From sequence record OK272482.1: a stretch of DNA of 64,000 bases. One strand, given 5' to 3'. The DNA is from Escherichia phage JLBYU08. Made by a program: the position numbers and the translations under genes. The notes under the pieces are model-generated. The model saw only the letters and a program-made list of their open reading frames with translations. It was not told the origin of the DNA and did not search any database. Of the stretch, positions 22,489-48,525 are shown piece after piece; position 1 is the stretch's first letter; each line of letters begins with the position of its first letter.

Positions 22489-22551
22489 TGCTGTGGTCCC
22501 CTTTCGTTTTGATAGGGCCATTATATTAGGCTCCATCACTGTTGTCAAGTA

Positions 22552-22773
22552 TTAATGTTCAGGTTTTACAAAAACTACTTCATTAACAGTGCACCAGACA
22601 GAGTCTCCTTCATCATCTTTAAAGGTAAGGCACTGTGCTGAGTTTTCCAGCTCATCGATCTCTTCTTGTGATAAAGGGGCCCCTTCTTCCAGGAGGGCTT
22701 TTACCAGGGGGGTTCTCACAAAACTCTGCTTCATAAATTGCACCGACTGTGCAATCTTTAAAAGCTCGGTCAT
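22552..22773 (-). CDS. hypothetical protein, about 73 aa
   Basis: ORF; no clear SD. Confidence 0.4.
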   Translation of the reverse strand: MTELLKIAQSVQFMKQSFVRTPLVKALLEEGAPLSQEEIDELENSAQCLTFKDDEGDSVWCTVNEVVFVKPEH

Positions 22774-22883
22774 TTGCAACGCATTCTGACTTCAAAGTAA
22801 TTTTCATCTTGGCAGTCTCCTTAGTTATTTAAAAATCAACGCTCTGTTTGTGTGAAACATCTTATATCTAATCTTACTTCTTG

Positions 22884-23255
22884 TCAATGACTATTTTCAA
22901 TCAGCCACACAGGGTCGAGGTAAATTTGTTGGCGTGTTGCCCAATGACAAACTTCATTGTACATCTGAACCTCTTTGTCTGTCAATTCACGAATAGGCTC
23001 ATCTATACCCTCATTTTTGTGGTAATCCCAGTCGGCATCGATTTCCCACAGCCATGACTTGTTGTCACCACGCTTACGCACACAGAAGTCACCAGGACGG
23101 CCTGCCAGTGCATTTAAGAACTCGTTCTCTGCTCGCTCCTGAAGAATGCTAAGGAGCAAAACGTTAGAACATGACCGTAGAATATGCTTCAGCTCACAAT
23201 CATCAATCTCAACTTCAATACGCTGTTTGACTGTGTGAGTACCTTTTACTAACAT
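22884..23255 (-). CDS. hypothetical protein, about 123 aa
   Basis: GGGGAGG SD before internal ATG. Confidence 0.55.
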   Translation of the reverse strand: MLVKGTHTVKQRIEVEIDDCELKHILRSCSNVLLLSILQERAENEFLNALAGRPGDFCVRKRGDNKSWLWEIDADWDYHKNEGIDEPIRELTDKEVQMYNEVCHWATRQQIYLDPVWLIENSH

Positions 23256-23265
23256 CCTGCCTCCC

Positions 23266-23460
23266 CTATACAAACTCTGCAAGTGTTGTGTTGTTCACTG
23301 CACCGCAGTAAATGGAGTATCCCAGCCCATTAAAGTGCAGAAACCACGGCGTGCCGGAATTATCTTTCACGTAGACATCGCCGTTGCTTGTAAAGGGCCA
23401 ATATTCTTCACCAAGGGTGAAATACCTACTCATACCCTCAGCCAGATACTTTACTTTCAT
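23266..23460 (-). CDS. small protein, 64 aa; member of a three-gene tandem paralogue set
   Basis: Shares pattern F..G..Y.V...D..G..W(F/Y) with the two upstream genes; ATGA coupling. Confidence 0.55.
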   Translation of the reverse strand: MKVKYLAEGMSRYFTLGEEYWPFTSNGDVYVKDNSGTPWFLHFNGLGYSIYCGAVNNTTLAEFV

Positions 23461-23684
23461 AGGCCCTCTTCAACAGCTACAAACTTGGCAAGCAGGGTGG
23501 TTCCGTAGATATGATACTCACCGTTTGCCAGATGGGAGATAAACCAGGCAATCCCTTCCTCGTCTTTAATCATCTTGTTTGCACGATTTTTATCGTAATA
23601 AACCTCGTAGGTCTTTCCTTCTTTAAAGAATGACAGGTCTGTCATCTTTTCTTCTACAAAGGTAGCTTTAACCAAAGTCGTCAT
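23457..23684 (-). CDS. small protein, 75 aa; tandem paralogue
   Basis: AAGGAG SD; ATGA coupling; shared motif. Confidence 0.6.
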   Translation of the reverse strand: MTTLVKATFVEEKMTDLSFFKEGKTYEVYYDKNRANKMIKDEEGIAWFISHLANGEYHIYGTTLLAKFVAVEEGL

Positions 23685-23965
23685 TGATCGGTCTCCTTCT
23701 TGTTAAGTCTGAATACTGCAATAATAGCATTCCCAAGGTGCAGTGTCAAGTCATTTCCAAGATACCACAGCATCCCACGGTCATCTTTAATGAAAGGGTA
23801 ACAATCTGGTGCCTTCCAGACATTGTACACTTTCCCAACCTGAAAGAAATCAGGCCCTGTTGGGATTTTGGTGCCAGGCCACACTTGAGATACCTGAACA
23901 CACTCCACCTGCATAATAACAGGAATGGTCATGGATGTAAATGTTTTTGTTGGCTCTACTACCAT
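23681..23965 (-). CDS. small protein, about 94 aa; tandem paralogue (start at MVVEPTK)
   Basis: AAAGAGGAGA SD before internal ATG; track ORF N-terminus would overlap polymerase exon 2. Confidence 0.55.
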   Translation of the reverse strand: MVVEPTKTFTSMTIPVIMQVECVQVSQVWPGTKIPTGPDFFQVGKVYNVWKAPDCYPFIKDDRGMLWYLGNDLTLHLGNAIIAVFRLNKKETDQ

Positions 23966-24014
23966 AAAAGTCTCCTCTTTGCTCAACAACACTTCCATGT
24001 GTTGATAGTTTACA

Positions 24015-24368
24015 TTAGTGACAATCACCCCAATTACGACCACACAAGTATTCACCTGTGATCTGGAACGGGACTCCCATCATTTTAGAAGCTTGCCAGA
24101 AGCAATGTACCACCATTTCGCCCACAGGACTCCAGATAAGTTCAAGCTTTCCGTCATCGTTCAAGATAGGATCGTACACCGTGTTTCCGTCTCTGTCAAC
24201 CACTTCGTTTCCGTTTTCATCCTTGCGTGCCTTTTTGTACTTATGACCGTCGAACACATGAAGTTTGGCCTCCTGCTCTGCCTTAAATGCTTCCAATTCT
24301 TCAATTGTGTCGAAGGTGTACACAGTCTTATACTTCGGTGTGTCAGGTACTTGAAGCTGATATTCATC
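24015..24368 (-). CDS. DNA polymerase (family A) exon 2: motif C (H|DEYQLQV) and C-terminal end ...NWGDCH
   Basis: Supplies the HDE motif and terminal His absent from the upstream 809-aa ORF; follows the omega-G of the intron. Confidence 0.75.
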   Translation of the reverse strand, partial: DEYQLQVPDTPKYKTVYTFDTIEELEAFKAEQEAKLHVFDGHKYKKARKDENGNEVVDRDGNTVYDPILNDDGKLELIWSPVGEMVVHCFWQASKMMGVPFQITGEYLCGRNWGDCH

Positions 24369-24697
24369 CATCTGTTCAGGTAGGTCGTTAAGCTACCCCG
24401 CACCATTACGTGCATAGCCATACAGTTTCCTGTATGGATCGGACTACCTCACTGCCTTGGTAACAAGGCACCTCCCATTTCGACCGCACTTGCTGGCCTA
24501 CTCTACTCGCTTCTTCACACCAACCTATGTTGGAGCTATGCTTTCGATAGTCTCTGAACGTTCATCCTCTCGGATGCTTCGCTGCGGATTAGCATATTGA
24601 GCTTTTACCATACTCAGGTGTAAAAGTCAACTTAGCTTTCCCGTCAATTAAAGAGGTTATTCGACATAGATCACTCTATGAAGCCACAATGTTATTT
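24369..24697 (-). mobile_element. group I self-splicing intron, 329 nt, no internal ORF
   Basis: AAUUGACGGGAAAG, GUUCAGAGACUA and GGUAGUCCGA elements; exon 1 ends in U, intron ends in G; in-frame TAA just inside intron. Confidence 0.8.
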
Positions 24698-27121
24698 ATG
24701 GTAATAGATAATACGACGGACACCTTCATCGTACCACCCACGCTTCACCATTTGGTGGTGCATGAGTATCCCAACTAAGTCACACAACGATGCACCACCA
24801 TTTTGTTGGTATGCATTAAGTAAAGAGTGTTTAGATCGGGTCCAGATGGCATGACCATCAAAAGAGTATATAAACTTCTTACCAGTTGCTTCCCAGAATT
24901 TCTCCAGATCCTCTTTACGCCCCTTAAGACCAGGGTTGGCATCCCAAAGCGCATCGATTACCCTTTGCCCCAACTCTGGAGAGATATCCAGCATGTCTGC
25001 AACTTTATCTTTTTGTGCCCCGTACATAACCCCATACGTGATAGGTTTACCGTCGTTACGGGACACCTCTCTGCCTGCTACTTTTGTATATGCCTCAGCA
25101 TTGTTTTGGTGTGCGTCCCCGTTACTTACAACATCATAATACAAGCCGTTGTCGAACTCAAAGGCACCCCAAGCCCCGATAAGCTGCTCTAAGTTGGACC
25201 CGTCAATACCGATCTCAAAGTATCCTGGAGGAACACCCCACAGACTACGCATCTCTTTACCCATAACCACTTTAGGAGATGGTTTAGGCATGTTTGCACA
25301 AATACTGTGTTTCTGTCGGGAAGTGTTTGTTAGCCCAGAACTTTTAGCAGGAAGCTTATGGTCAATCTTCAAACGTGGGTGATTAAGAAGACCAGTATCA
25401 ACCTTATCCTCCTTGATTGGATCAAGGACCGATCTGCGGTTTCGCAATGATAACCACAAGACGATATCTTTAGCCATCTCTCCGTTCAATTTTTCAAGAT
25501 TTGGGCATAGGTGTCCAAACGTATCTTTCAGCTGCGGAGAAGTAATAAGTGCTCTGGCTTTTCTACGTATTTTCCCGAATACTTCCTTTTTAATCCTTTC
25601 GGAGTTAGGAAAGCTTCGGAACTTGTGCACGGTTGTCTGAAACTTAGCATCAGTTTTGTTCCAGAAGTTGATAATCAGGTCACAATACTCTGACTCTAAA
25701 AGCTCGTCCATGTATGCATATACTCGTGCATCAACATCTGCATCAGGTAGAGCTTTCTTCTTGCTGTCTTTAGTTACATCCTTAGTTCTCCACATTGTCG
25801 GAAGCCAACCAGCACTGATCAGGTATCGCTTAATGTCGTCCTGATTGCTGATTTTCATAGGTATCTTGCAGTCCGGCATTCGCTTCTGCTGTAGATCACT
25901 TATTGCCTGATCCATCAGCTCTTTAGGTAAAGGTTGTGGTGTGGAAGTGCCCTTAATATAGCCTCTCAAGAAATCAGCCATCTTATCAGGGTCTTTGCAG
26001 CCCATCTCTTCACACCATTTTATCCCCATCTTGCTGACATCTCCTGTGGAGGTAAATGCTCGCTTAGGCGGGGCTTTGAACTCCAAAGCACTCATGTCCA
26101 CAGGATAGCCAAGCTTATCTTTTAACCATTTCCAACCATTGTTGGAGATTGTCCCATCTTGGTTAAACGGCTTTTCAGGGAACTTGGGCCGCTGAGACAT
26201 TGACAGCTCTTTTAAAGGAAGTTGAGGTTCAACACGATCAGCGATTTCTTTCATCCACGCATCGCAACGGTCACGTAAAGCAATAGCTCCATCTATGTCG
26301 AAGTATACACCCTGACGGGCCTGCAGCTCCATCAGGAAGTGCTGCAGCATGCCTCGACGTAGTGCGTTCTTCCAGGTGATCTTCTTGAACCCTTTCGGCT
26401 TCTCTTTGGCTGGATCGTACATAAAGTTCTGCATGTCAGATTTGCCGTAGAATACACCTTTTGATTCCGCTACCAGCTCTTTCCAGAGCAGCTCCTGGAT
26501 GATAACGTCCTCGAATACACGATCCACATACTTCCACAACGGAAGATCGCGCCAGTCATCAATTTGAACTTTCTGGTTACCAAGGGCGTAGCCCCATGCC
26601 ATAAGGCCGTGAGGACCAACAGGCTGCATTTTCTTAGTAACCGGGTTGAATACAGAGTCCGGACAACCTTTTGGTAAAGGGCGATCAGGCCACAAGATTC
26701 GGCTCATCGCCAACGTATCAAACAGGTTAACCTGGTGGTCGTTGATAGTCCCCATACATTTAGGATCACGGAACATATCAAAATGAATACCGGATAATCT
26801 CTCCATCAGCATAAAGTCATAACTGTAGCAGTTATGGCAGTTCAAAGCTGTTGGTGACCAGTCGGAATTGCCTGTAAGCCAACCCTCCAACTCTGAAAAA
26901 TCTGCTATGCGAACTTCAAAATCTTTATAAAAAGTTTTCTTTGCCAGAATAAAGTTCTTAGCCTTCTCTATATCCTCTTCGGAGTAGTGTGTGCGGTCAT
27001 TTAGAGGAAGGAACAGCATAAAACGGTTCTTATTCAGCTCTTTAAACAGGCCGCAGTGATAATAAAGATCTGGGTCTTCCAGCAAACCGGATGACTCAAA
27101 ATCGAACGACCACATGCTCAT
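24698..27121 (-). CDS. DNA polymerase (family A) exon 1: 3'-5' exonuclease and polymerase domains through motif B
   Basis: N-terminal WSFDFESSG exo motif; IGIDGSNLEQL (motif A-like); KPITYGVMYGAQ (motif B); AAGGAGAA SD. Confidence 0.9.
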
Positions 27122-30954: not shown

Positions 30955-31259
30955 CAGAAACCTCCCACTTCTTCAGCAAATGCAGCTGCTGTCGTCGCTG
31001 CATCCAGATAGGACTCTAGTTCACGAGCTGCACGTTTGTAAATTGAGTGGCGAATATCGTTTGGCAGTTGGTGGAAGTCCACCTCTTCACCGTTGCGGTA
31101 AACATGCACATCAGTGATCTGTCTAAATCCGTAATAGTCAACATCAGAATCACGGCACTCCGGGTCTGGCAACTGGACAACTGCCTGAGCTTCTACAGTG
31201 AACATATCGTCAAGTTCGAAATCGATTTCAAAAGTGTATGGTTTATAACGTTTCATCAT
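30954..31259 (-). CDS. hypothetical protein, about 101 aa
   Basis: AAAGAG SD before internal ATG. Confidence 0.55.
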   Translation of the reverse strand: MMKRYKPYTFEIDFELDDMFTVEAQAVVQLPDPECRDSDVDYYGFRQITDVHVYRNGEEVDFHQLPNDIRHSIYKRAARELESYLDAATTAAAFAEEVGGF

Positions 31260-31272
31260 TTGATTGTACTCT

Positions 31273-32598
31273 TTATTGATCAGACTTATCTTTCGCAATT
31301 AAGGTCGGGGCAAGTTTGTAATAACGGAAGCCACCACCACCTTGCCAGTTTACAGACTTAGAAATACCACCTTGATCTTCACCGTCGATCACTTTTTCCA
31401 AGCGCGGAATAATATGGGTATGACAATGATCACCTAGCTCGATTGAGATCCAACATCTTTTCATCTTGTGAGCTACAGCGGCGGTAGTTCCCGAACCACC
31501 GAATGAATCCAATACCAAATCACCTTCTCGCGTACACATTTCGAAAATCCGCTTCAAAAGCGCTTCCGGTTTTTTCCCATTTTTGAAACTAACGCCGCCT
31601 TCATTTGCTATTCCATTCCAACTAATGTCTGTCCAAACATCAGTTATCAGTTCCGCAGGTTGCATCTCACCATCAATTTCCAAAAGCCTGTTGGAGTAAA
31701 AGACCATTTGCCTACCATTTGCGATATAAAATCCTTCAACATCCTCATTTGGATGTACATAAACCTTATCTCTATCTTTCTTTGACTTCTCTATAGTTTC
31801 TTTTCTCTTTATTTTAGCACCACCACCAATTGCAACAGATTGAAATACACGTTCTGCATTATCAATTGCGAATTGTGCTAATTCATCATCGAATGTATTA
31901 GGCAGTTTTTTCTTGGCTTCTTTTGCATCTTTATAGCCATTGGCCTTTGCAAACGCATCGGCAATACCGCACCACGTCCAATTTTTATAATGGTCGTCCG
32001 GGTTTAATAAGTATTTGTTATACCCTGTATCATACCCTTTAGGTATATAGATTTTGTTAAGCGGTTTCTGGGTGCGATCTTTTGCATATACAAGCAAAAA
32101 GTTTGCTGTGGAGAAAACTGTAGCTCCTGTTGCCTTAAATCCTGAAGGGGAGTTTGTGGTCATCGATATGGTATTTAACTGATTTGCACGACCAAAAATC
32201 TCGTCCATCAAAACTTTTAAATACGCCATTTCGCAATCATCTAAGTGAACGAATATTACCCCATCATCACTTAGAAGATTACGAATTATTTCTAACCTAT
32301 CCCTCATTAAGCCCAGCCAAATGGAATGCTCCAGGCTATCATCGTAGTGCTCAAAAGCCCTTCCGGTATTGAATGGTGGGTCGATGTAAACACACTTCAC
32401 TTTGCCTGTATACTCTTGCTCTAGCGCCTTCAATGCTAATAAGTTATCTCCAAAAATCAGTTTATTATCAAAAATACCGTTTTCGGTCACTTTCTGGCTG
32501 CGGTAAGACTTGCTCGAATCTTCTAACAAAATGTGCGGCTCTAGCTTTTTGCGCTCGTTTTTACCTATCCAGGTAAGTTCTAATTTAGTTTTGCTCAT
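31273..32598 (-). CDS. DNA methyltransferase, beta-class amino-MTase (N6-adenine or N4-cytosine), 441 aa
   Basis: Motif IV DPPF near N-terminus and motif I DSFGGSGTT near C-terminus (beta-class order); AAGGAGAG SD. Confidence 0.8.
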   Translation of the reverse strand: MSKTKLELTWIGKNERKKLEPHILLEDSSKSYRSQKVTENGIFDNKLIFGDNLLALKALEQEYTGKVKCVYIDPPFNTGRAFEHYDDSLEHSIWLGLMRDRLEIIRNLLSDDGVIFVHLDDCEMAYLKVLMDEIFGRANQLNTISMTTNSPSGFKATGATVFSTANFLLVYAKDRTQKPLNKIYIPKGYDTGYNKYLLNPDDHYKNWTWCGIADAFAKANGYKDAKEAKKKLPNTFDDELAQFAIDNAERVFQSVAIGGGAKIKRKETIEKSKKDRDKVYVHPNEDVEGFYIANGRQMVFYSNRLLEIDGEMQPAELITDVWTDISWNGIANEGGVSFKNGKKPEALLKRIFEMCTREGDLVLDSFGGSGTTAAVAHKMKRCWISIELGDHCHTHIIPRLEKVIDGEDQGGISKSVNWQGGGGFRYYKLAPTLIAKDKSDQ

Positions 32599-42265: not shown

Positions 42266-43306
42266 ATGTTGACATCTGTTGAGACAATTGATACGATTTC
42301 TTCACTTACAGAGCACGAGAGACGACTCATGAATCTTGAAAAATATTATACACCAGAAGAGTTAGAGCGCTTGCTCAAAAAATATAGACGCAAACAGAAT
42401 AACGCACGGAAACGAGATATAGAGTTCGACCTGTCATGGGAAGAATACCTCCTATTTGGTAAAAAACTTTTAGGAGATGGAGTATGCGACTATACCCTTA
42501 TACCTTTTGACATGCACACAGATGAAAACGGGCTGGGAAATCCTTTCTACCCATCTCTGGAGCGGATAGATGATGAAGGTCCTTATGCGGTTGATAACTG
42601 TTGTGTGGTGGGATTGAGATGCAACTCTCTAAAGGACTGTCTGGTAGATAAAAAGACTGCAGTCTTGATTAAAGACGAAACTGATCGAAAAATTGTCCAG
42701 CAGATGATGCTCCACCTGAGCGAAGAGCGTATGGAGAAATTGAAAGGTGATTATACTTTTGAAGATTTCATCTTACAATATGGAACGGAAGAGGATAAAC
42801 TAGCACTCTTTGACGAAGAAGAGGAGGAAGATATGCTACCGATGTCTAAAGTTACTTATCGTGCACCCAAGAAGCACATTTCCGACATTGTAAACGAGCC
42901 TATCACAGAAGAGATTGAAGAAATGACGCAACAGGTGCATGAAGAGGAAAAAGAGACTCAGGAGGTCGAAGAGGAGCTTACAGAAGAGGTTCCTGCACTA
43001 CCTGATGATGTTGAGATTGCCAAAGCTTACACTTTCTATTGTCAAACGTTCTACGATGTAGGTATGAAAGTTGATCTGTCGTTCAGCCAATTTAAGAGTT
43101 CGTATATTCGCAAATGCTGTGCTTTAACTGGTGAACGTCTTGGAGCTGGACTTAAACCTCTGTTGGTGACCGACTGGAATAAAGGTTTCACTAAAGGAAA
43201 CTTTATGGTAGTATCTCCAATTATGGAGAAAGCTATGACAGATCTTATGAAGACCACCCGCATGACAATGACCGAGTTGGCAGGTATTTTCAAACACGTT
43301 AAATAA
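42266..43306 (+). CDS. ORF with two tandem copies of a Cys/Asp-rich domain, 346 aa; possibly two in-frame genes, second starting at MSKVTYRA (42842)
   Basis: Both halves carry C-x-(Y/A)-T...(R/T)(I/D)D...G(Y/F)..GN(c/f).V motif; GAGGAGG SD before internal ATGs; no clear SD at annotated start. Confidence 0.5.
   Translation: MLTSVETIDTISSLTEHERRLMNLEKYYTPEELERLLKKYRRKQNNARKRDIEFDLSWEEYLLFGKKLLGDGVCDYTLIPFDMHTDENGLGNPFYPSLERIDDEGPYAVDNCCVVGLRCNSLKDCLVDKKTAVLIKDETDRKIVQQMMLHLSEERMEKLKGDYTFEDFILQYGTEEDKLALFDEEEEEDMLPMSKVTYRAPKKHISDIVNEPITEEIEEMTQQVHEEEKETQEVEEELTEEVPALPDDVEIAKAYTFYCQTFYDVGMKVDLSFSQFKSSYIRKCCALTGERLGAGLKPLLVTDWNKGFTKGNFMVVSPIMEKAMTDLMKTTRMTMTELAGIFKHVK
42837..42865. repeat. 29-bp perfect inverted repeat, right copy
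   Basis: TACCGATGTCTAAAGTTACTTATCGTGCA on plus strand. Confidence 0.85.
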
Positions 43307-43310
43307 TAAC

Positions 43311-43335
43311 AGGGGCCAATGGCCCCTTCTGGAGT
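43311..43335 (+). terminator. possible weak terminator hairpin
   Basis: GGGGCC-AAT-GGCCCC followed by TTCTGGAGTTTT; short loop and interrupted T-run. Confidence 0.35.
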
Positions 43336-43339
43336 TTTA

Positions 43340-44800
43340 ATGGATAGCAGAAGTTCAGAAATCATTGCCTCGCAGAAAGATGATGCCCTGAGAATGTTGC
43401 AGGCTGCACGTATGTATCTCCTTGAAAAGCTGCCGTTCTATGGCACACTACTGTCAGGGTTGCAGTTCGTAGAAAACCACACATGGTGCTCCACCATGGC
43501 AACCGACCATAAACGCATCTATTACAGTCCTGAGTTCATTATGGGATTGGCTGATGAACGCAAGGCTATTCTTAAGGCTTCTCTAACTGACGAGCAGTTT
43601 GAGATGGCTGAAGTTTTCTATTCCCCAAAATCTGTGAAAGAGGTGGCCTTCCTTCTGTCACATGAGGTGGGGCATATTATCTGTGATCACCTAGTCCGTG
43701 GTAAAAGCTTTGAGCCGGAACTGTTCAATATTGCTTGTGATCACGTTATCAACACAGGCCTTGTGGTTGACTTTAGCAAACCTCCTTGTGTTTTCTTCCC
43801 GAAGGGGAAAAGCACTACGTTCGTGAAAGGTAAGCCTTTTGGCTTCTTAGCCAGCTGCTACTGCGACATGAAGTTTCATGGATGGATTGCTGAGAACGTT
43901 TATGCAGTTCTTGATAAGCAAAGAGATCAGAATAACGGTAAAAGTAAGAACGGTAAAGGTGAGAACTCTCAAAGTGATAAGCGACAAACCGATGATCACA
44001 TGAGTGGGAACGGTGGCACCAGTGATAATCTTGGAAAGGCTATGGGGTATGATCAGCCACAACCTGTAATCAGCCAATCTGATAAAGATCAGGCCATGCA
44101 GGACTCTGGTGATATGCTGGAGGCAGCAATGCAAGCGTCCGGAGGCCGTTGCCCTGAGGCGGTGCGTGAGTTTGTCAAGAACAGAGGTAAACCTGTAATC
44201 AACTATATAGACATCATTAAGCAACGCATGTTGTCTAAAAGAAAGGCCGAACTGACCTACAGAAAACCTGGTCGCCGATCTGGGTCTTTGACCAGCACAA
44301 TGCGAAAAGTTGGGGCTATAAACAAGAACCAGCACGTTATTGTTCCTGGTCGTAATCCGGAAAACACTATAGATATTGTGGTGGCTTTAGACGTTTCTGG
44401 CTCGATCTCTCAAAGAACTTTAAAGAAAATGTTCAATGAAATCACCGGATTGTGCAATCTGTATAAAGAGTTTAAGGTTACAATGTTCTGTTGGTCAACT
44501 GAGGTTGGAGAGGTTAAAGTATACACTCGCGGCAACATAGACGAGATGATCAACTATGAGGTCCACTCAACATGGGGCACAACAGCTGCTTGCGTGTTCG
44601 AGCATCTGGATGCCAACATACCTAATGCAAAAGATGTCATCGTCCTGACCGACCTATACTTTGAGCATAACTTTGAACAAAAGGTTGTTGACAACAAGTG
44701 GAAAAAGTACGATACTCTATGGGTCCTCACTGAGGGGTATAATAAAAATTATATCCCGAGCTTTGGGAAAACTGTGGAATTAATCGAGTACGCTAAGTAA
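43340..44800 (+). CDS. putative metallopeptidase (HExxH) plus von Willebrand A domain protein, DUF2201-like, about 486 aa
   Basis: HEVGHIICDH zinc-binding motif in N-terminal half; MIDAS-like VALDVSGSIS in C-terminal half; GGAG SD before internal ATG. Confidence 0.7.
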   Translation: MDSRSSEIIASQKDDALRMLQAARMYLLEKLPFYGTLLSGLQFVENHTWCSTMATDHKRIYYSPEFIMGLADERKAILKASLTDEQFEMAEVFYSPKSVKEVAFLLSHEVGHIICDHLVRGKSFEPELFNIACDHVINTGLVVDFSKPPCVFFPKGKSTTFVKGKPFGFLASCYCDMKFHGWIAENVYAVLDKQRDQNNGKSKNGKGENSQSDKRQTDDHMSGNGGTSDNLGKAMGYDQPQPVISQSDKDQAMQDSGDMLEAAMQASGGRCPEAVREFVKNRGKPVINYIDIIKQRMLSKRKAELTYRKPGRRSGSLTSTMRKVGAINKNQHVIVPGRNPENTIDIVVALDVSGSISQRTLKKMFNEITGLCNLYKEFKVTMFCWSTEVGEVKVYTRGNIDEMINYEVHSTWGTTAACVFEHLDANIPNAKDVIVLTDLYFEHNFEQKVVDNKWKKYDTLWVLTEGYNKNYIPSFGKTVELIEYAK

Positions 44801-44815
44801 GAGAGGAGGTTATTT

Positions 44816-45079
44816 ATGGCAACAGAGTTAAAATTTGCATCAAACCGTAAAACTAAGAAGTATCTGTCCTCAGTAGCTCCAGGCACTGTGGTGATGTTTG
44901 TTGATGAACTTGGGGATGTGAATACAGCACTTGTTGTAAAATCACATCCTGCAAACATATATGTTGGGGTATTTGACCTGTTCAGAAAGGTGTTTGTAGA
45001 ACTACCTCACAGTTTGGTTGTTACAGAAATGGATGCCTGCATAGAAATTCTTGGCGAAGTTATGGTGGAGGAACAATAA
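44816..45079 (+). CDS. small protein, 87 aa; paralogue 1 of a four-gene tandem array
   Basis: Shared pattern MAT..kF.s..k.K.....GtVV...D.......mvvk...fdl...L...kVtE.d..I.iLGE; GAGGAGG SD. Confidence 0.6.
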   Translation: MATELKFASNRKTKKYLSSVAPGTVVMFVDELGDVNTALVVKSHPANIYVGVFDLFRKVFVELPHSLVVTEMDACIEILGEVMVEEQ

Positions 45080-45342
45080 TGGCTACCAGCATTGTATTCA
45101 ATTCTAAGGTGAAGAACAAAAAGCGTGCAGACAGCTTTCCGTGTGGGACCGTGGTAAGTTGCGACGGAGACGGCATTCAAAACATAGTTATGATTGTCAA
45201 AACAGGAGAACATTGTGTGTGGGGGTTCGATTTAGAAAATAATGAGTTGTACGATCTGCCACCAAACATGAAAGTTACAGAGCTTGACACCAAAATTACC
45301 ATCCTTGGAGAGACAAGCTATTCAAAAGAAGGAGGAGAATAA
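45079..45342 (+). CDS. small protein, 87 aa; paralogue 2
   Basis: TAATG coupling; same length and motif pattern. Confidence 0.6.
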   Translation: MATSIVFNSKVKNKKRADSFPCGTVVSCDGDGIQNIVMIVKTGEHCVWGFDLENNELYDLPPNMKVTELDTKITILGETSYSKEGGE

Positions 45343-45605
45343 TGACCACAAAAATCACTATCGCAGAACCGAAAGCTAACACTCAACCTATCGAAAAGTT
45401 TAAGTGCGGTGAGGTGGTAACATTCACACCAGATAATGAAGATGCTAAGATTTTCGCAATGGTCACAGCTGAGTGGATGTGTGACAACACCACACAGGTT
45501 CTGCGTTTTGACACCTATCTTACCGATGAAATCAGGAACGACAAGATTGTGACTGGTGTGGATACTGAGATTGTTTTCTACAAGAGCTTTTTAGAGGGTT
45601 TCTGA
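45342..45605 (+). CDS. small protein, 87 aa; paralogue 3
   Basis: TAATG coupling; same length and motif pattern. Confidence 0.6.
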   Translation: MTTKITIAEPKANTQPIEKFKCGEVVTFTPDNEDAKIFAMVTAEWMCDNTTQVLRFDTYLTDEIRNDKIVTGVDTEIVFYKSFLEGF

Positions 45606-45606
45606 T

Positions 45607-45840
45607 ATGGCAAAAATTCGTAAATTATCTAGCAATCAGGTTGTGAAAGACTTTGAATCTGGAGAGATTCTTTATGTTCGTGATGCAGATGACGAAGGTG
45701 AAGATCTCGTTATGTTGGTGGGGCACGCTGAGGACGGATGCATCCAAGCTGTTTTTCTTGAAACAGCTATGGTGCACTGGATAGAGCTGGACCTGAAAGC
45801 ACGAAAACCTAAAGCAGAAATCCTGATTTACGAAGATTAA
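45607..45840 (+). CDS. small protein, 77 aa; divergent paralogue 4
   Basis: Coupled start; similar size; weaker motif match. Confidence 0.5.
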   Translation: MAKIRKLSSNQVVKDFESGEILYVRDADDEGEDLVMLVGHAEDGCIQAVFLETAMVHWIELDLKARKPKAEILIYED

Positions 45841-45855
45841 TAAAAGGAGAGAGCC

Positions 45856-46305
45856 GTGTTGAGCAAACGTGAATGCGACAGCATTAGCCTGAATTCTTAT
45901 AAGAAACAATGGTTTGGGGTAGAAGTTTGCCGACTGCGGCTAGGCTCCTACCTGAACTTCGTTTATTATGAGAGTGACAGTCGTATCGTTTCTTATGAAG
46001 TGTTCTACACTAAGAACACCTTCGAACTGCGCCGTAAAGTGGATGGCGGGAGAACTACCGCCCAGAATAATTGGGAAACTATTCTGCCTCCAGATGTTAT
46101 AGGAAGCCCCCTGAATGTATCTGAAGATGAAAATCTTATGGTTCATGCTATGATGGGACTTGACAGCTTAGAGCTGGCGATCTATGATATGTCCATAGAA
46201 GCAGTTAAGCTGGACTACATCGAAAACACTTTAGAGGAAGGTATCAAGAAGTTTCTCAGTGAGAAATTAAAAGACCACTTTCATAAGGAGCTATATCTGT
46301 TATGA
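45856..46305 (+). CDS. hypothetical protein, 149 aa, GTG start
   Basis: AAAGGAGAGAG SD before GTG. Confidence 0.55.
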   Translation: MLSKRECDSISLNSYKKQWFGVEVCRLRLGSYLNFVYYESDSRIVSYEVFYTKNTFELRRKVDGGRTTAQNNWETILPPDVIGSPLNVSEDENLMVHAMMGLDSLELAIYDMSIEAVKLDYIENTLEEGIKKFLSEKLKDHFHKELYLL

Positions 46306-46547
46306 AGACCCGTAAAGAACGTAACAAAATTTTACCTGGAGCTCTCGAACACCTGATGAAGTGCAGATCTATTTGGCACTCTGCCAAGGAAGGGCAGAAG
46401 GTGGTTGTGGTTAGTGACAATACCAACCCGTTTGGAGATTATACCACCATGATGGCCCCATATGTCCGTGATGGCGTTGTAGAAGTGGTCCCTTACAACG
46501 GTTTGCATGAACGGCACTTTGAAAGCACTTTGCTAGTGGAGCTATAG
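46302..46547 (+). CDS. hypothetical protein, 81 aa
   Basis: ATGA coupling. Confidence 0.55.
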   Translation: MKTRKERNKILPGALEHLMKCRSIWHSAKEGQKVVVVSDNTNPFGDYTTMMAPYVRDGVVEVVPYNGLHERHFESTLLVEL

Positions 46548-46549
46548 TC

Positions 46550-47116
46550 ATGGCGGTCAATGTGGCTTACAACACAGGAAAGCTTGACAGAGACATTGGG
46601 TGTCTTGTCCTTTCAGATACAGAAGAGTATTGGGGTTATGGGTTGCTGTCAGACCCACACCCGAGCAACCTTGTATCAACAGTGCTATACCGCTACGACC
46701 CTGTGCCAACGGTACACGACAAAGACATTCACGACCTTCGGATCAAGTGTCTGGAAGATCTGCTGAACAATGGTTGCAACGATCTGCGGGTAGCCAAGGA
46801 GAAGCTTACAAACATTCACAAAGAGGAAGTGATGAGTACCCTCAGTAAAAGATCAGTGCACAAAAAGACGATGCTGAACTTTGCAATGGGTATCTACATG
46901 GATGGGTATAAGGGAGGGGATCCGATCCTCAAGCTTCGCTGCCCGACACTGTGGGAAAGAGTGGTTGACAGTAAGGACGGTACTGCCCTGCTCGAACTCC
47001 ACACTGCAGGTTGGATTTGGAGGTATGTAGACGGATACCCTCTGTGGGCATGTGGACCTGGGGAATTTGTTGACAGACCTAGCGCTGTGGTGGACTTACT
47101 ATTGCAGTTTGAATAA
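46550..47116 (+). CDS. hypothetical protein, 188 aa
   Basis: ORF with GGAGCT SD. Confidence 0.6.
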   Translation: MAVNVAYNTGKLDRDIGCLVLSDTEEYWGYGLLSDPHPSNLVSTVLYRYDPVPTVHDKDIHDLRIKCLEDLLNNGCNDLRVAKEKLTNIHKEEVMSTLSKRSVHKKTMLNFAMGIYMDGYKGGDPILKLRCPTLWERVVDSKDGTALLELHTAGWIWRYVDGYPLWACGPGEFVDRPSAVVDLLLQFE

Positions 47117-48144: not shown

Positions 48145-48525
48145 ATGTGCAAGTGTAAATCCTATAATTGGAAAGTGAAAGGTGCCAAGCATCCAAATGT
48201 TATCGTTGATGTGCCTAAAAATCTTCGTGACGGCAAAAAACGTGTGTGCCTTGATAAGTGTATGGCTAAGCCTATCATGAGTTTGTGGGCAGCAGGTTTG
48301 AAAACGCTAAACTGCTGCTGTGGTCATAACAAAGATATTCCAAGCATCATTATCCCAGAAGATGCAGATCCTAAAGCTTATGCCAAAATACTGACCCGCT
48401 ATCCCAGCACCTTCCTGATCGGAAAATGGTGTCACGATGAACTCCAATGGTGGATAGCCTATGGTAGTATAGGCACTACTTTTGGCTTCCCAGCTTTGTC
48501 AGAGCGCTATGTCAAAGTGTCATAA
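48145..48525 (+). CDS. Cys-rich hypothetical protein, 126 aa
   Basis: ORF with GGAGA SD. Confidence 0.55.
   Translation: MCKCKSYNWKVKGAKHPNVIVDVPKNLRDGKKRVCLDKCMAKPIMSLWAAGLKTLNCCCGHNKDIPSIIIPEDADPKAYAKILTRYPSTFLIGKWCHDELQWWIAYGSIGTTFGFPALSERYVKVS

What the first reader, a model, noticed from the sequence alone, without database searches (positions are those of the whole stretch)
44816..45840. Tandem array of four paralogous small genes
Four consecutive translationally coupled ORFs of 87, 87, 87 and 77 aa share a motif pattern (MAT..KF...K.K.....GTVV...D......MVVK...FDL...L...KVTE.D..I.ILGE) while diverging elsewhere. Tandem amplification and diversification of a small gene is typical of accessory loci under diversifying selection, such as host-takeover or anti-defence factors.
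Basis: seen in the sequence. Interest (0 to 1): 0.55.

Follow-up and report, generated by a model that had tools for sequence, protein, structure and literature searches.

The report
Small beta-barrel gene array in rV5-like phage
Four back-to-back small genes in an rV5-like E. coli phage encode acidic SH3-like beta-barrel proteins descended (three surely, the fourth probably) from one ancestor; the first two form a swappable cassette and the last two are tightly conserved, all are dispensable in the laboratory, and their function is still unknown.

The parts
42269..42297 (+). Sigma70-type promoter-like site (TTGACA-17-TACGAT with TG) upstream of the operon. It corresponds in position to rV5 promoter 'P11'.
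   Evidence: Consensus scan, 10/12 match. rV5 record annotates a Sigma70-type promoter P11 just upstream of ORF11. No + strand terminator-like site lies between here and 47470. Function not shown.
42329..43306 (+). Context: first gene of the operon, annotated 'Srd-like anti-sigma factor' (rV5 ORF11).
   Evidence: Annotation in LL12/rV5. No Pfam/NCBIfam support. A 37-39% identical homolog lies directly downstream of the W3-like gene in the distant lineage L013.
43319..44800 (+). Context: DUF2201_N metallopeptidase fused to a VWA-like domain (rV5 ORF12), directly upstream of the array. Start codon uncertain (LL12 annotates about 43340).
   Evidence: Pfam PF13203 4.6e-28 and PF09967 4.5e-11. Its Bas54 ortholog bas54_0055 is depleted in a clinical isolate, log2FC -2.20, q 0.009.
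44816..45079 (+). W1, 87 aa, subfamily A of the family (phrog_10698). Acidic, pI 5.0.
   Evidence: Within-class dN/dS 0.14-0.17.
45079..45342 (+). W2, 87 aa, subfamily B (phrog_10698). Predicted SH3-like small beta-barrel. pI 4.9.
44831..45330 (+). Exchangeable cassette: W1 from codon 6 through W2 to four codons before its stop. In rV5-type phages it is replaced by about 230 bp encoding a single 85-aa subfamily C gene (rV5 ORF14).
   Evidence: DNA homology to rV5, FV3 and two IMG/VR contigs stops at 44830 (FV3: 44826) and resumes at 45331. The same cassette is 93-100% identical in L017, whose flanks are 63-70% identical.
45342..45605 (+). W3, 87 aa (phrog_12861), distant paralog of W1/W2. The most conserved gene of the region. 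pI 4.5.
   Evidence: 96.6-98.9% amino-acid identity where flanking proteins are 41-82% identical; dN/dS 0.012-0.025. A 78-81% identical copy occurs in a lineage whose ORF12 homolog is 46-48% identical.
45607..45840 (+). W4, 77 aa (phrog_12046). Probable but unproven very distant paralog with the same predicted strand order. The most acidic member (net charge -8).
   Evidence: AlphaFold pLDDT 66.5 with five strands in the same order as W2. dN/dS 0.04-0.09.
44801..44809 (+). Shine-Dalgarno GAGAGGAGG for W1. Equivalent sites for W2 (GGTGGAGGA, 45064-45072), W3 (AGGAGGAG, 45330-45337) and W4 (GAGGG, 45594-45598) lie inside the last codons of the preceding gene.
   Evidence: Read directly from the sequence. 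LL12 record annotates ribosome-binding sites at the same places.

Best explanation
The locus is an old, tandem family of small, acidic, cytoplasmic SH3-like beta-barrel proteins. It is transcribed early from a host-type promoter, in one operon with an Srd-like gene and a metallopeptidase-VWA gene, and translated by coupling. It has two parts. The front slot holds either two genes (W1+W2, as here) or one gene of a third subfamily (rV5 ORF14); recombination at the conserved gene boundaries swaps it as a unit, even between lineages that are otherwise highly diverged. The back pair (W3, W4) is constant and under very strong purifying selection. The proteins are dispensable for growth on E. coli K-12. 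Inferred, not shown: each barrel acts as a protein-binding module on a host (or phage) protein during early infection. W3/W4 would address conserved targets. The alternative front cassettes would address targets that differ between hosts.
Against: No binding partner, expression timing or phenotype has been measured for these genes. The fold models are of moderate (W2) and low-moderate (W4) confidence, built from shallow alignments. The SH3-like barrel is so common that it does not discriminate between protein, RNA or peptide ligands. W4's sequence signal could reflect shared beta-strand periodicity rather than common descent. The only conditional transposon-sequencing comparison I could read showed no requirement for the three orthologs: log2FC +0.46, +0.33, and -1.32 with p 0.13. 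Both cassette types occur in phages isolated on K-12 and on O157, so no host correlate of the cassette type is visible.
Confidence: 0.6

Rival explanations
1. They are counter-defence (anti-immunity) proteins. The variable front slot would provide alternative inhibitors of strain-specific defence systems.
For: The front slot is polymorphic and is exchanged between lineages. The genes are non-essential early accessory genes. They lie in the same early region as MoxR bas54_0063, shown to be needed against defence system DS-28, and next to the metallopeptidase-VWA gene that is depleted in the same comparison.
Against: There is no depletion of bas54_0052-0054 in the clinical-isolate comparison. 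W3 and W4 are among the most conserved genes in the region, which is unusual for inhibitors of variable defences. There is no diversifying selection within any class. No similarity to any named family was found.
Confidence: 0.2
2. They are adaptors, substrates or regulators of the phage MoxR AAA+ / metallopeptidase-VWA chaperone pair encoded nearby. For example, acidic ligands of the VWA metal site could direct the pair to targets.
Confidence: 0.12
3. They are LSm/Hfq-like RNA-binding regulators of mRNA stability or translation, analogous to what was proposed for the T4 early proteins GoF, MotB.1 and Frd.2.
For: The small beta-barrel fold class is shared with Sm/LSm, KOW and ribosomal L2/EF-P domains. 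The W4 model has an N-terminal helix followed by five strands. T4-like phages encode a family of early LSm-like-fold proteins of dissimilar sequence (PMC12152347). The operon begins with an Srd-like gene.
Against: All four proteins are acidic, with net charge -4 to -8, which is unfavourable for RNA binding. There is no Pfam LSM or KOW hit. There is no sequence similarity to GoF or MotB.1, hhalign E about 0.4.
Confidence: 0.08
4. W4 (and less likely W3) is not a paralog at all. It would be an unrelated small beta-rich gene that happens to be adjacent, so the true family is a two-gene (or three-gene) array.
For: There is no BLASTP similarity. hhalign probability is only 1-11% for W4. The exhaustive profile search did not retrieve any W4-like cluster. 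The W4 model did not hit W1/W2/W3 models among its top 50 BFVD neighbours.
Against: W4 is the top non-self hit of the W1-3 profile among 442 ORFs, and the relationship is reciprocal. Shuffle p-values are 3.5e-4 to 4e-3. The alignment is full-length and collinear, unlike the controls. Size, acidity, strand order and coupling are the same. For W3 the evidence of homology is strong.
Confidence: 0.25

Closest known systems
PHROG families phrog_10698 (W1, W2), phrog_12861 (W3), phrog_12046 (W4); rV5 ORF14/15/16; LL12 gp013-016; Bas54 bas54_0054/0053/0052
   Same: These are the same genes or their orthologs, already catalogued as hypothetical proteins in 117 Vequintavirus records.
   Different: The catalogues treat them as three unrelated families of unknown function. 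The link of W3 (and possibly W4) to the W1/W2 family is not recorded there, nor is the fold or the cassette polymorphism.
T4-like phage early LSm-like-fold proteins GoF, MotB.1, Frd.2 (Kim et al. 2025, PMC12152347)
   Same: Both are several small early phage proteins of very dissimilar sequence that share a predicted small beta-barrel fold. Both are non-essential and of uncertain function.
   Different: There is no detectable sequence relationship, hhalign E about 0.4. The T4 proteins are larger (119-141 aa) and scattered rather than tandem. Here the proteins are acidic and translationally coupled.
SH3-like small beta-barrel domains: ribosomal L2 SH3-like, Tudor/PWWP, KOW (Spt5/NusG), EF-P/eIF5A domain I, UvrD/PcrA C-terminal Tudor-like domain, HspQ/YccV
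   Different: Sequence identity is 4-19%. No family-specific motif was detected (no Pfam hit). These are stand-alone acidic proteins with an extra N-terminal strand.
MoxR AAA+ / metallopeptidase-VWA pair of large phages (Iyer et al. 2021, PMC7824862; HIDEN-SEQ preprint 10.1101/2025.11.20.689424)
   Same: It shares the genomic neighbourhood and the operon.
   Different: The small genes are not part of the described pair. They are absent next to it in other genera. They were not required under the condition where the pair was.

Membership tests
Tandem paralog family (common descent of the four ORFs) | Statistically significant sequence similarity between members | tested here: met
   Met for W1-W2: BLASTP E 1e-12. 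Met for W3 against the W1/W2/ORF14 profile: hhalign E 4.6e-6, hmmsearch E 4.9e-4 among 442 ORFs, 0/20000 shuffles. An independent W3-like sequence from L013 gives E 0.0016.
Tandem paralog family (common descent of the four ORFs) | W4 significantly similar to the other three | tested here: inconclusive
   hhalign E 0.0027 with probability 11%. hmmsearch E 0.028, top non-self hit. Shuffle p 3.5e-4 to 0.022. Not retrieved by the exhaustive profile search.
phrog_10698 | Full-length match to the family profile | tested here: met
   W1 7.6e-43 and W2 4.8e-41. W3 only 0.078 (full length). W4 no hit.
SH3-like small beta-barrel fold class | Five-stranded, strongly bent antiparallel barrel that superposes on known SH3-like domains | tested here: met
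Tudor / PWWP 'royal family' readers | Aromatic cage that binds methylated Lys/Arg | not tested
   Cage geometry was not examined. No Pfam Tudor or PWWP hit at E<=1.
KOW / LSm (Sm1-Sm2) sequence families | Match to the family's sequence profile | tested here: not met
   No PF00467 or LSM-family hit for any of the four at E<=1. No NCBIfam hit of note.
T4 GoF/MotB.1/Frd.2 LSm-like-fold family | Sequence or profile similarity to GoF or MotB.1 | tested here: not met
   hhalign E 0.38-0.42 over 1-12 columns. Frd.2 was not tested.
Phage counter-defence proteins | Gene required for infection only when a given host defence is present | tested here: inconclusive
   Published Bas54 transposon sequencing, K-12 versus one clinical isolate: bas54_0054 +0.46, bas54_0053 +0.33, bas54_0052 -1.32 (p 0.13). 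MoxR -7.23 and metallopeptidase-VWA -2.20 (q 0.009) are depleted. This covers one condition and the one-gene cassette type only.
Loci under diversifying (positive) selection | dN/dS near or above 1 between orthologs | tested here: not met
   Nei-Gojobori dN/dS: W1 0.14-0.17, W2 0-0.02, ORF14-type 0-0.10, W3 0.012-0.025, W4 0.04-0.09. Site-level tests were not run.

The most novel reading that the evidence does not exclude
The translationally coupled paralogs assemble into one hetero-oligomeric Sm-like or SH3-like complex. The strictly conserved W3-W4 pair would be the core. The exchangeable front cassette (W1+W2 or the single ORF14-type protein) would supply alternative specificity subunits, giving a phage host-interaction device that is re-targeted by cassette swapping.
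Probability: 0.07. Interest if true: 0.7.

Novelty: new member of a known kind. Interest (0 to 1): 0.35.

Why it matters
If the binder model holds, the locus would show how a large virulent phage keeps a constant pair of host-directed proteins while shuffling a neighbouring pair by recombination at gene boundaries. W3 is conserved far beyond its neighbours and yet dispensable in the laboratory, so it is a good candidate for identifying a conserved host target. The two natural cassette types provide a ready-made swap experiment. As it stands, the finding mainly refines annotation. It links three 'unrelated' hypothetical families, assigns a fold, and shows that variation arises by cassette exchange under purifying selection rather than by diversifying selection.

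Tried and rejected
- The word-indexed homolog searches with W1 and W4 returned only near-identical orthologs.
- IMG/VR scans with the family alignment and with W3 found only two contigs, both rV5-type.
- The exhaustive HMMER search of 1.84 billion representatives with a W1-W3 profile found five family clusters, one repeat protein judged spurious (P0011, 21 short stretches) and one SH3-repeat protein (P0013). It found no functionally named relative.
- Profile searches against PDB sequences gave nothing below E 0.085.
- Pfam and NCBIfam gave only sub-threshold noise.
- BFVD fold search returned only uncharacterized small phage proteins beyond the family itself.
- An RNA-level explanation for the W3-W4 DNA conservation was considered and dropped. 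Rfam finds nothing there, and W3 synonymous divergence exceeds that of its flanks in L004: dS 2.5 against 0.45-0.8.
- Origin of the one-gene form by recent unequal crossing-over between W1 and W2 was rejected. ORF14 is about 40% identical to both along its whole length and forms its own clade with P0012.
- ORF18 (46302-46547) and ORF 31047-31361 were tested as further members and rejected.
- A column-shuffle hhalign test timed out and was replaced by hmmsearch shuffles.
- Literature searches by protein accession found nothing.

Full report
**Identity of the window and the observation**

The region is 99.7% identical to Escherichia phage inoa and about 99% identical to LL12, Murica and other Vequintavirus (rV5-like) genomes. 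I call them W1 to W4.

- The W1/W2 and W2/W3 junctions are TAATG overlaps. W3/W4 is TGAtATG.
- The Shine-Dalgarno sequence of each downstream gene lies in the last codons of the upstream one. LL12's record annotates the same ribosome-binding sites.
- They follow an Srd-like 'anti-sigma' gene and a DUF2201 metallopeptidase-VWA gene (Pfam 4.6e-28 and 4.5e-11).
- A sigma70-type promoter-like site lies at 42269-42297, matching rV5's annotated P11. No terminator-like site lies on the + strand before 47470.

**Are they paralogs?**

- W1 and W2: yes. BLASTP gives 39% identity, E 1e-12, and both match phrog_10698.
- W3: a real but distant paralog.
  - A profile of W1, W2 and the rV5 ORF14 protein aligns to the W3 profile end to end: hhalign probability 86%, E 4.6e-6, 75 columns.
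  - The same profile picks W3 as best non-self hit among all 442 ORFs of the window, E 4.9e-4, next best 0.36.
  - It is not matched by any of 20000 shuffled W3 sequences.
  - It also recognises an independent W3-like protein from another lineage, E 0.0016.
- W4: weaker.
  - hhalign of the W1-3 profile against the W4 profile gives E 0.0027 over 69 collinear columns, but probability only 11%.
  - W4 is the top non-self hit of the W1-3 profile (E 0.028), and W3 and W2 are the top two non-self hits of the W4 profile.
  - Shuffle p-values are 3.5e-4 to 4e-3.
  - Controls (ORF18, T4 GoF, T4 MotB.1) give E 0.19-0.42 over 1-12 columns.
  - I regard W4 as probable, not proven.

**Fold**

- ribosomal L2
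- Tudor and PWWP
- KOW
- EF-P/eIF5A domain I
- the UvrD/PcrA C-terminal domain
- HspQ

W4 was modelled only from its own orthologs (pLDDT 66.5). It has five strands in the same order. It shares 10 of its top 50 BFVD neighbours with W2, all uncharacterized 60-90 aa phage proteins, but it does not hit W1-W3 models. All four proteins are acidic, with pI 4.5-5.0 and net charge -4 to -8. No Pfam, NCBIfam or PDB-sequence relative exists.

**Distribution**

tblastn finds each of the four only in the same 117 Vequintavirus records of 50,697 phage genomes. An exhaustive HMMER search of 1.84 billion cluster representatives with a W1-W3 profile found only five family clusters, plus two repeat proteins. 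One of these, P0013, is made of RimP-SH3/KOW-like repeats, a weak sequence-level echo of the predicted fold. Related genera that share the DUF2201 gene (Mydovirus KB57, Seunavirus LNA4) have no detectable member beside it.

**Variation among relatives**

- Forty-three records have W1+W2. Seventy-four, including rV5, FV3 and Bas54, have a single 85-aa gene (rV5 ORF14) in that place, followed by W3 and W4 orthologs.
- ORF14 is about 40% identical to both W1 and W2 along its whole length. It forms a third, equidistant subfamily with P0012.
- DNA homology between the window and rV5, which is 97% in the flanks, stops at 44830 and resumes at 45331. The left breakpoint is after the shared first codons ATGGCAACAGAG; the right one is at the ribosome-binding site and start of W3.
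- Three further lineages were recovered from public assemblies.
  - In L008, flanking proteins are 37-82% identical to the window's. The W1 and W2 orthologs are 56-58% and 64-70% identical, but W3 is 97.7% and W4 94.8%.
  - In L017/L019 the flanks are equally diverged: ORF11 62%, ORF12 79%, ORF17 63%, ORF19 57%, ORF20 41%, with synonymous sites saturated. Yet W1 is 94% and W2 100% identical, with dS only 0.19-0.27. DNA identity is 93-100% only across about 44880-45390. The cassette has therefore moved between divergent lineages.
  - In L013-L016, a lineage whose DUF2201 protein is at most 47% identical to any phage in the collection, a W3-like gene of 78-81% identity sits alone immediately upstream of the Srd-like homolog.

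**Selection**

Pairwise Nei-Gojobori estimates give purifying selection everywhere:

| Gene | dN/dS |
|---|---|
| W1 | 0.14-0.17 |
| W2 | 0-0.02 |
| ORF14-type | 0-0.10 |
| W3 | 0.012-0.025 |
| W4 | 0.04-0.09 |

W3's synonymous divergence can exceed that of its flanks: dS 2.5 in L004 against 0.45-0.8. Its conservation is therefore at the protein level, not the RNA level, and Rfam finds nothing in the region. The picture is old paralogs maintained by selection, with whole-cassette exchange in the front slot. It is not recent amplification and diversification.

**Experimental data from the literature**

The HIDEN-SEQ preprint (10.1101/2025.11.20.689424) mapped transposon insertions in Bas54. I take Bas54 to be the MaxBurger-type one-gene phage from matching coordinates.

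- bas54_0054 (ORF14-type), bas54_0053 (W3) and bas54_0052 (W4) are classed non-essential on K-12, with 17/17, 13/15 and 12/12 TA sites disrupted.
- In the K-12 versus clinical-isolate comparison their log2 fold changes are +0.46, +0.33 and -1.32 (p 0.13).
- In the same comparison MoxR bas54_0063 (-7.23) and the adjacent metallopeptidase-VWA bas54_0055 (-2.20, q 0.009) are depleted.
- The text assigns MoxR a role against predicted defence system DS-28.
- The sheet is headed CFE303, but its command line names the 311 library, and the following sheet repeats the same numbers.

**Interpretation**

I conclude that the array encodes accessory, early, acidic SH3-like binder proteins. There is a recombinationally exchangeable front cassette and a constant, strongly constrained back pair. 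The binding function and targets are inferred only. Rivals remain open at lower probability:

- counter-defence proteins
- adaptors of the MoxR/VWA pair
- LSm-like RNA regulators of the kind proposed for T4 GoF/MotB.1/Frd.2 (PMC12152347)

The closest described analog is that T4 family. It resembles these proteins in fold class and in being early, small and dispensable, but there is no sequence relationship.

**Verdict**

The diversifying-selection reading is not supported, although the 'accessory host-interaction locus' idea remains plausible. Novelty is modest: a new member of the known kind 'small beta-barrel early phage proteins of unknown function'.

Noticed in passing
window 24419-24707 (-): A group I intron (Rfam RF00028, 72.5 bits, E 1.9e-16) lies at the 3' part of the DNA polymerase gene (809-aa ORF 24692-27121 on the minus strand). 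Close relatives (FFH2, I29, isim) carry about 513 bp more at this place and annotate an HNH homing endonuclease there. The window's intron therefore appears to lack the endonuclease ORF.
   Followed up: partly
GenBank MG0656xx records matched by window 44000-46600: Sixteen records named 'Campylobacter phage' with host Campylobacter jejuni match this E. coli rV5-like region. One of them, C12, is listed at 97.7% identity over window 22500-27000. They are probably mislabelled or contaminant genomes.
   Followed up: no
window 43319-44800 and 45856-46305: ORF12 is a DUF2201 metallopeptidase plus VWA-like protein by Pfam. It is nevertheless named 'HNH endonuclease' by phrog_1314 and several RefSeq records. 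ORF17 is named 'tail protein' by phrog_6790 although it sits in the early operon. These look like propagated misannotations.
   Followed up: no
orthologs of window 43319-44800 and 45856-46305 in Bas54: In the HIDEN-SEQ table the metallopeptidase-VWA gene bas54_0055 is significantly depleted (log2FC -2.20, q 0.009) together with MoxR. This is not mentioned in the passages of the main text that I read. The ORF17 ortholog bas54_0051 shows -2.28 (p 0.028, q 0.195). The sheet heading (CFE303) disagrees with its command line (library 311), and the next sheet shows identical numbers.
   Followed up: partly
window 45335-45934 versus L008; 45390-45930 versus L017: The island of high DNA identity around W3-W4 (85-97% against L008, 80-93% against L017, with 57-70% just outside) extends about 78 nt into ORF17. 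The recombination tracts therefore do not end at the W4 stop codon.
   Followed up: partly
window 46302-46547; L008 5224-5471: The 81-aa ORF18 (phrog_4868) has no called gene at the corresponding place in the L008 lineage. It is 70% identical in L017. This is another presence/absence difference in the same operon.
   Followed up: no
P0013 (metagenomic protein, 277 aa): This was the only credible non-family hit of the exhaustive profile search (E 2.1e-5). It has three to four tandem 'FKVGETVTY...' repeats that match the RimP C-terminal SH3 Pfam model (2e-8) and KOW motifs. P0011 (2151 aa, 21 short stretches) looks like a repeat-driven false positive.
   Followed up: partly
L011 1355-1606: An ORF14-type gene (P0012, 63% identical to rV5 ORF14) occurs on a short metagenomic contig in a different context. 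It lies directly upstream of a homolog of window ORF 48145-48525, without W3 or W4 between them.
   Followed up: no
window 31047-31361 (+): This 104-aa ORF gave the next-best weak match to the W1-3 profile (hmmsearch E 0.053; hhalign E 0.026 over 32 columns). I judged it not to be a member.
   Followed up: yes
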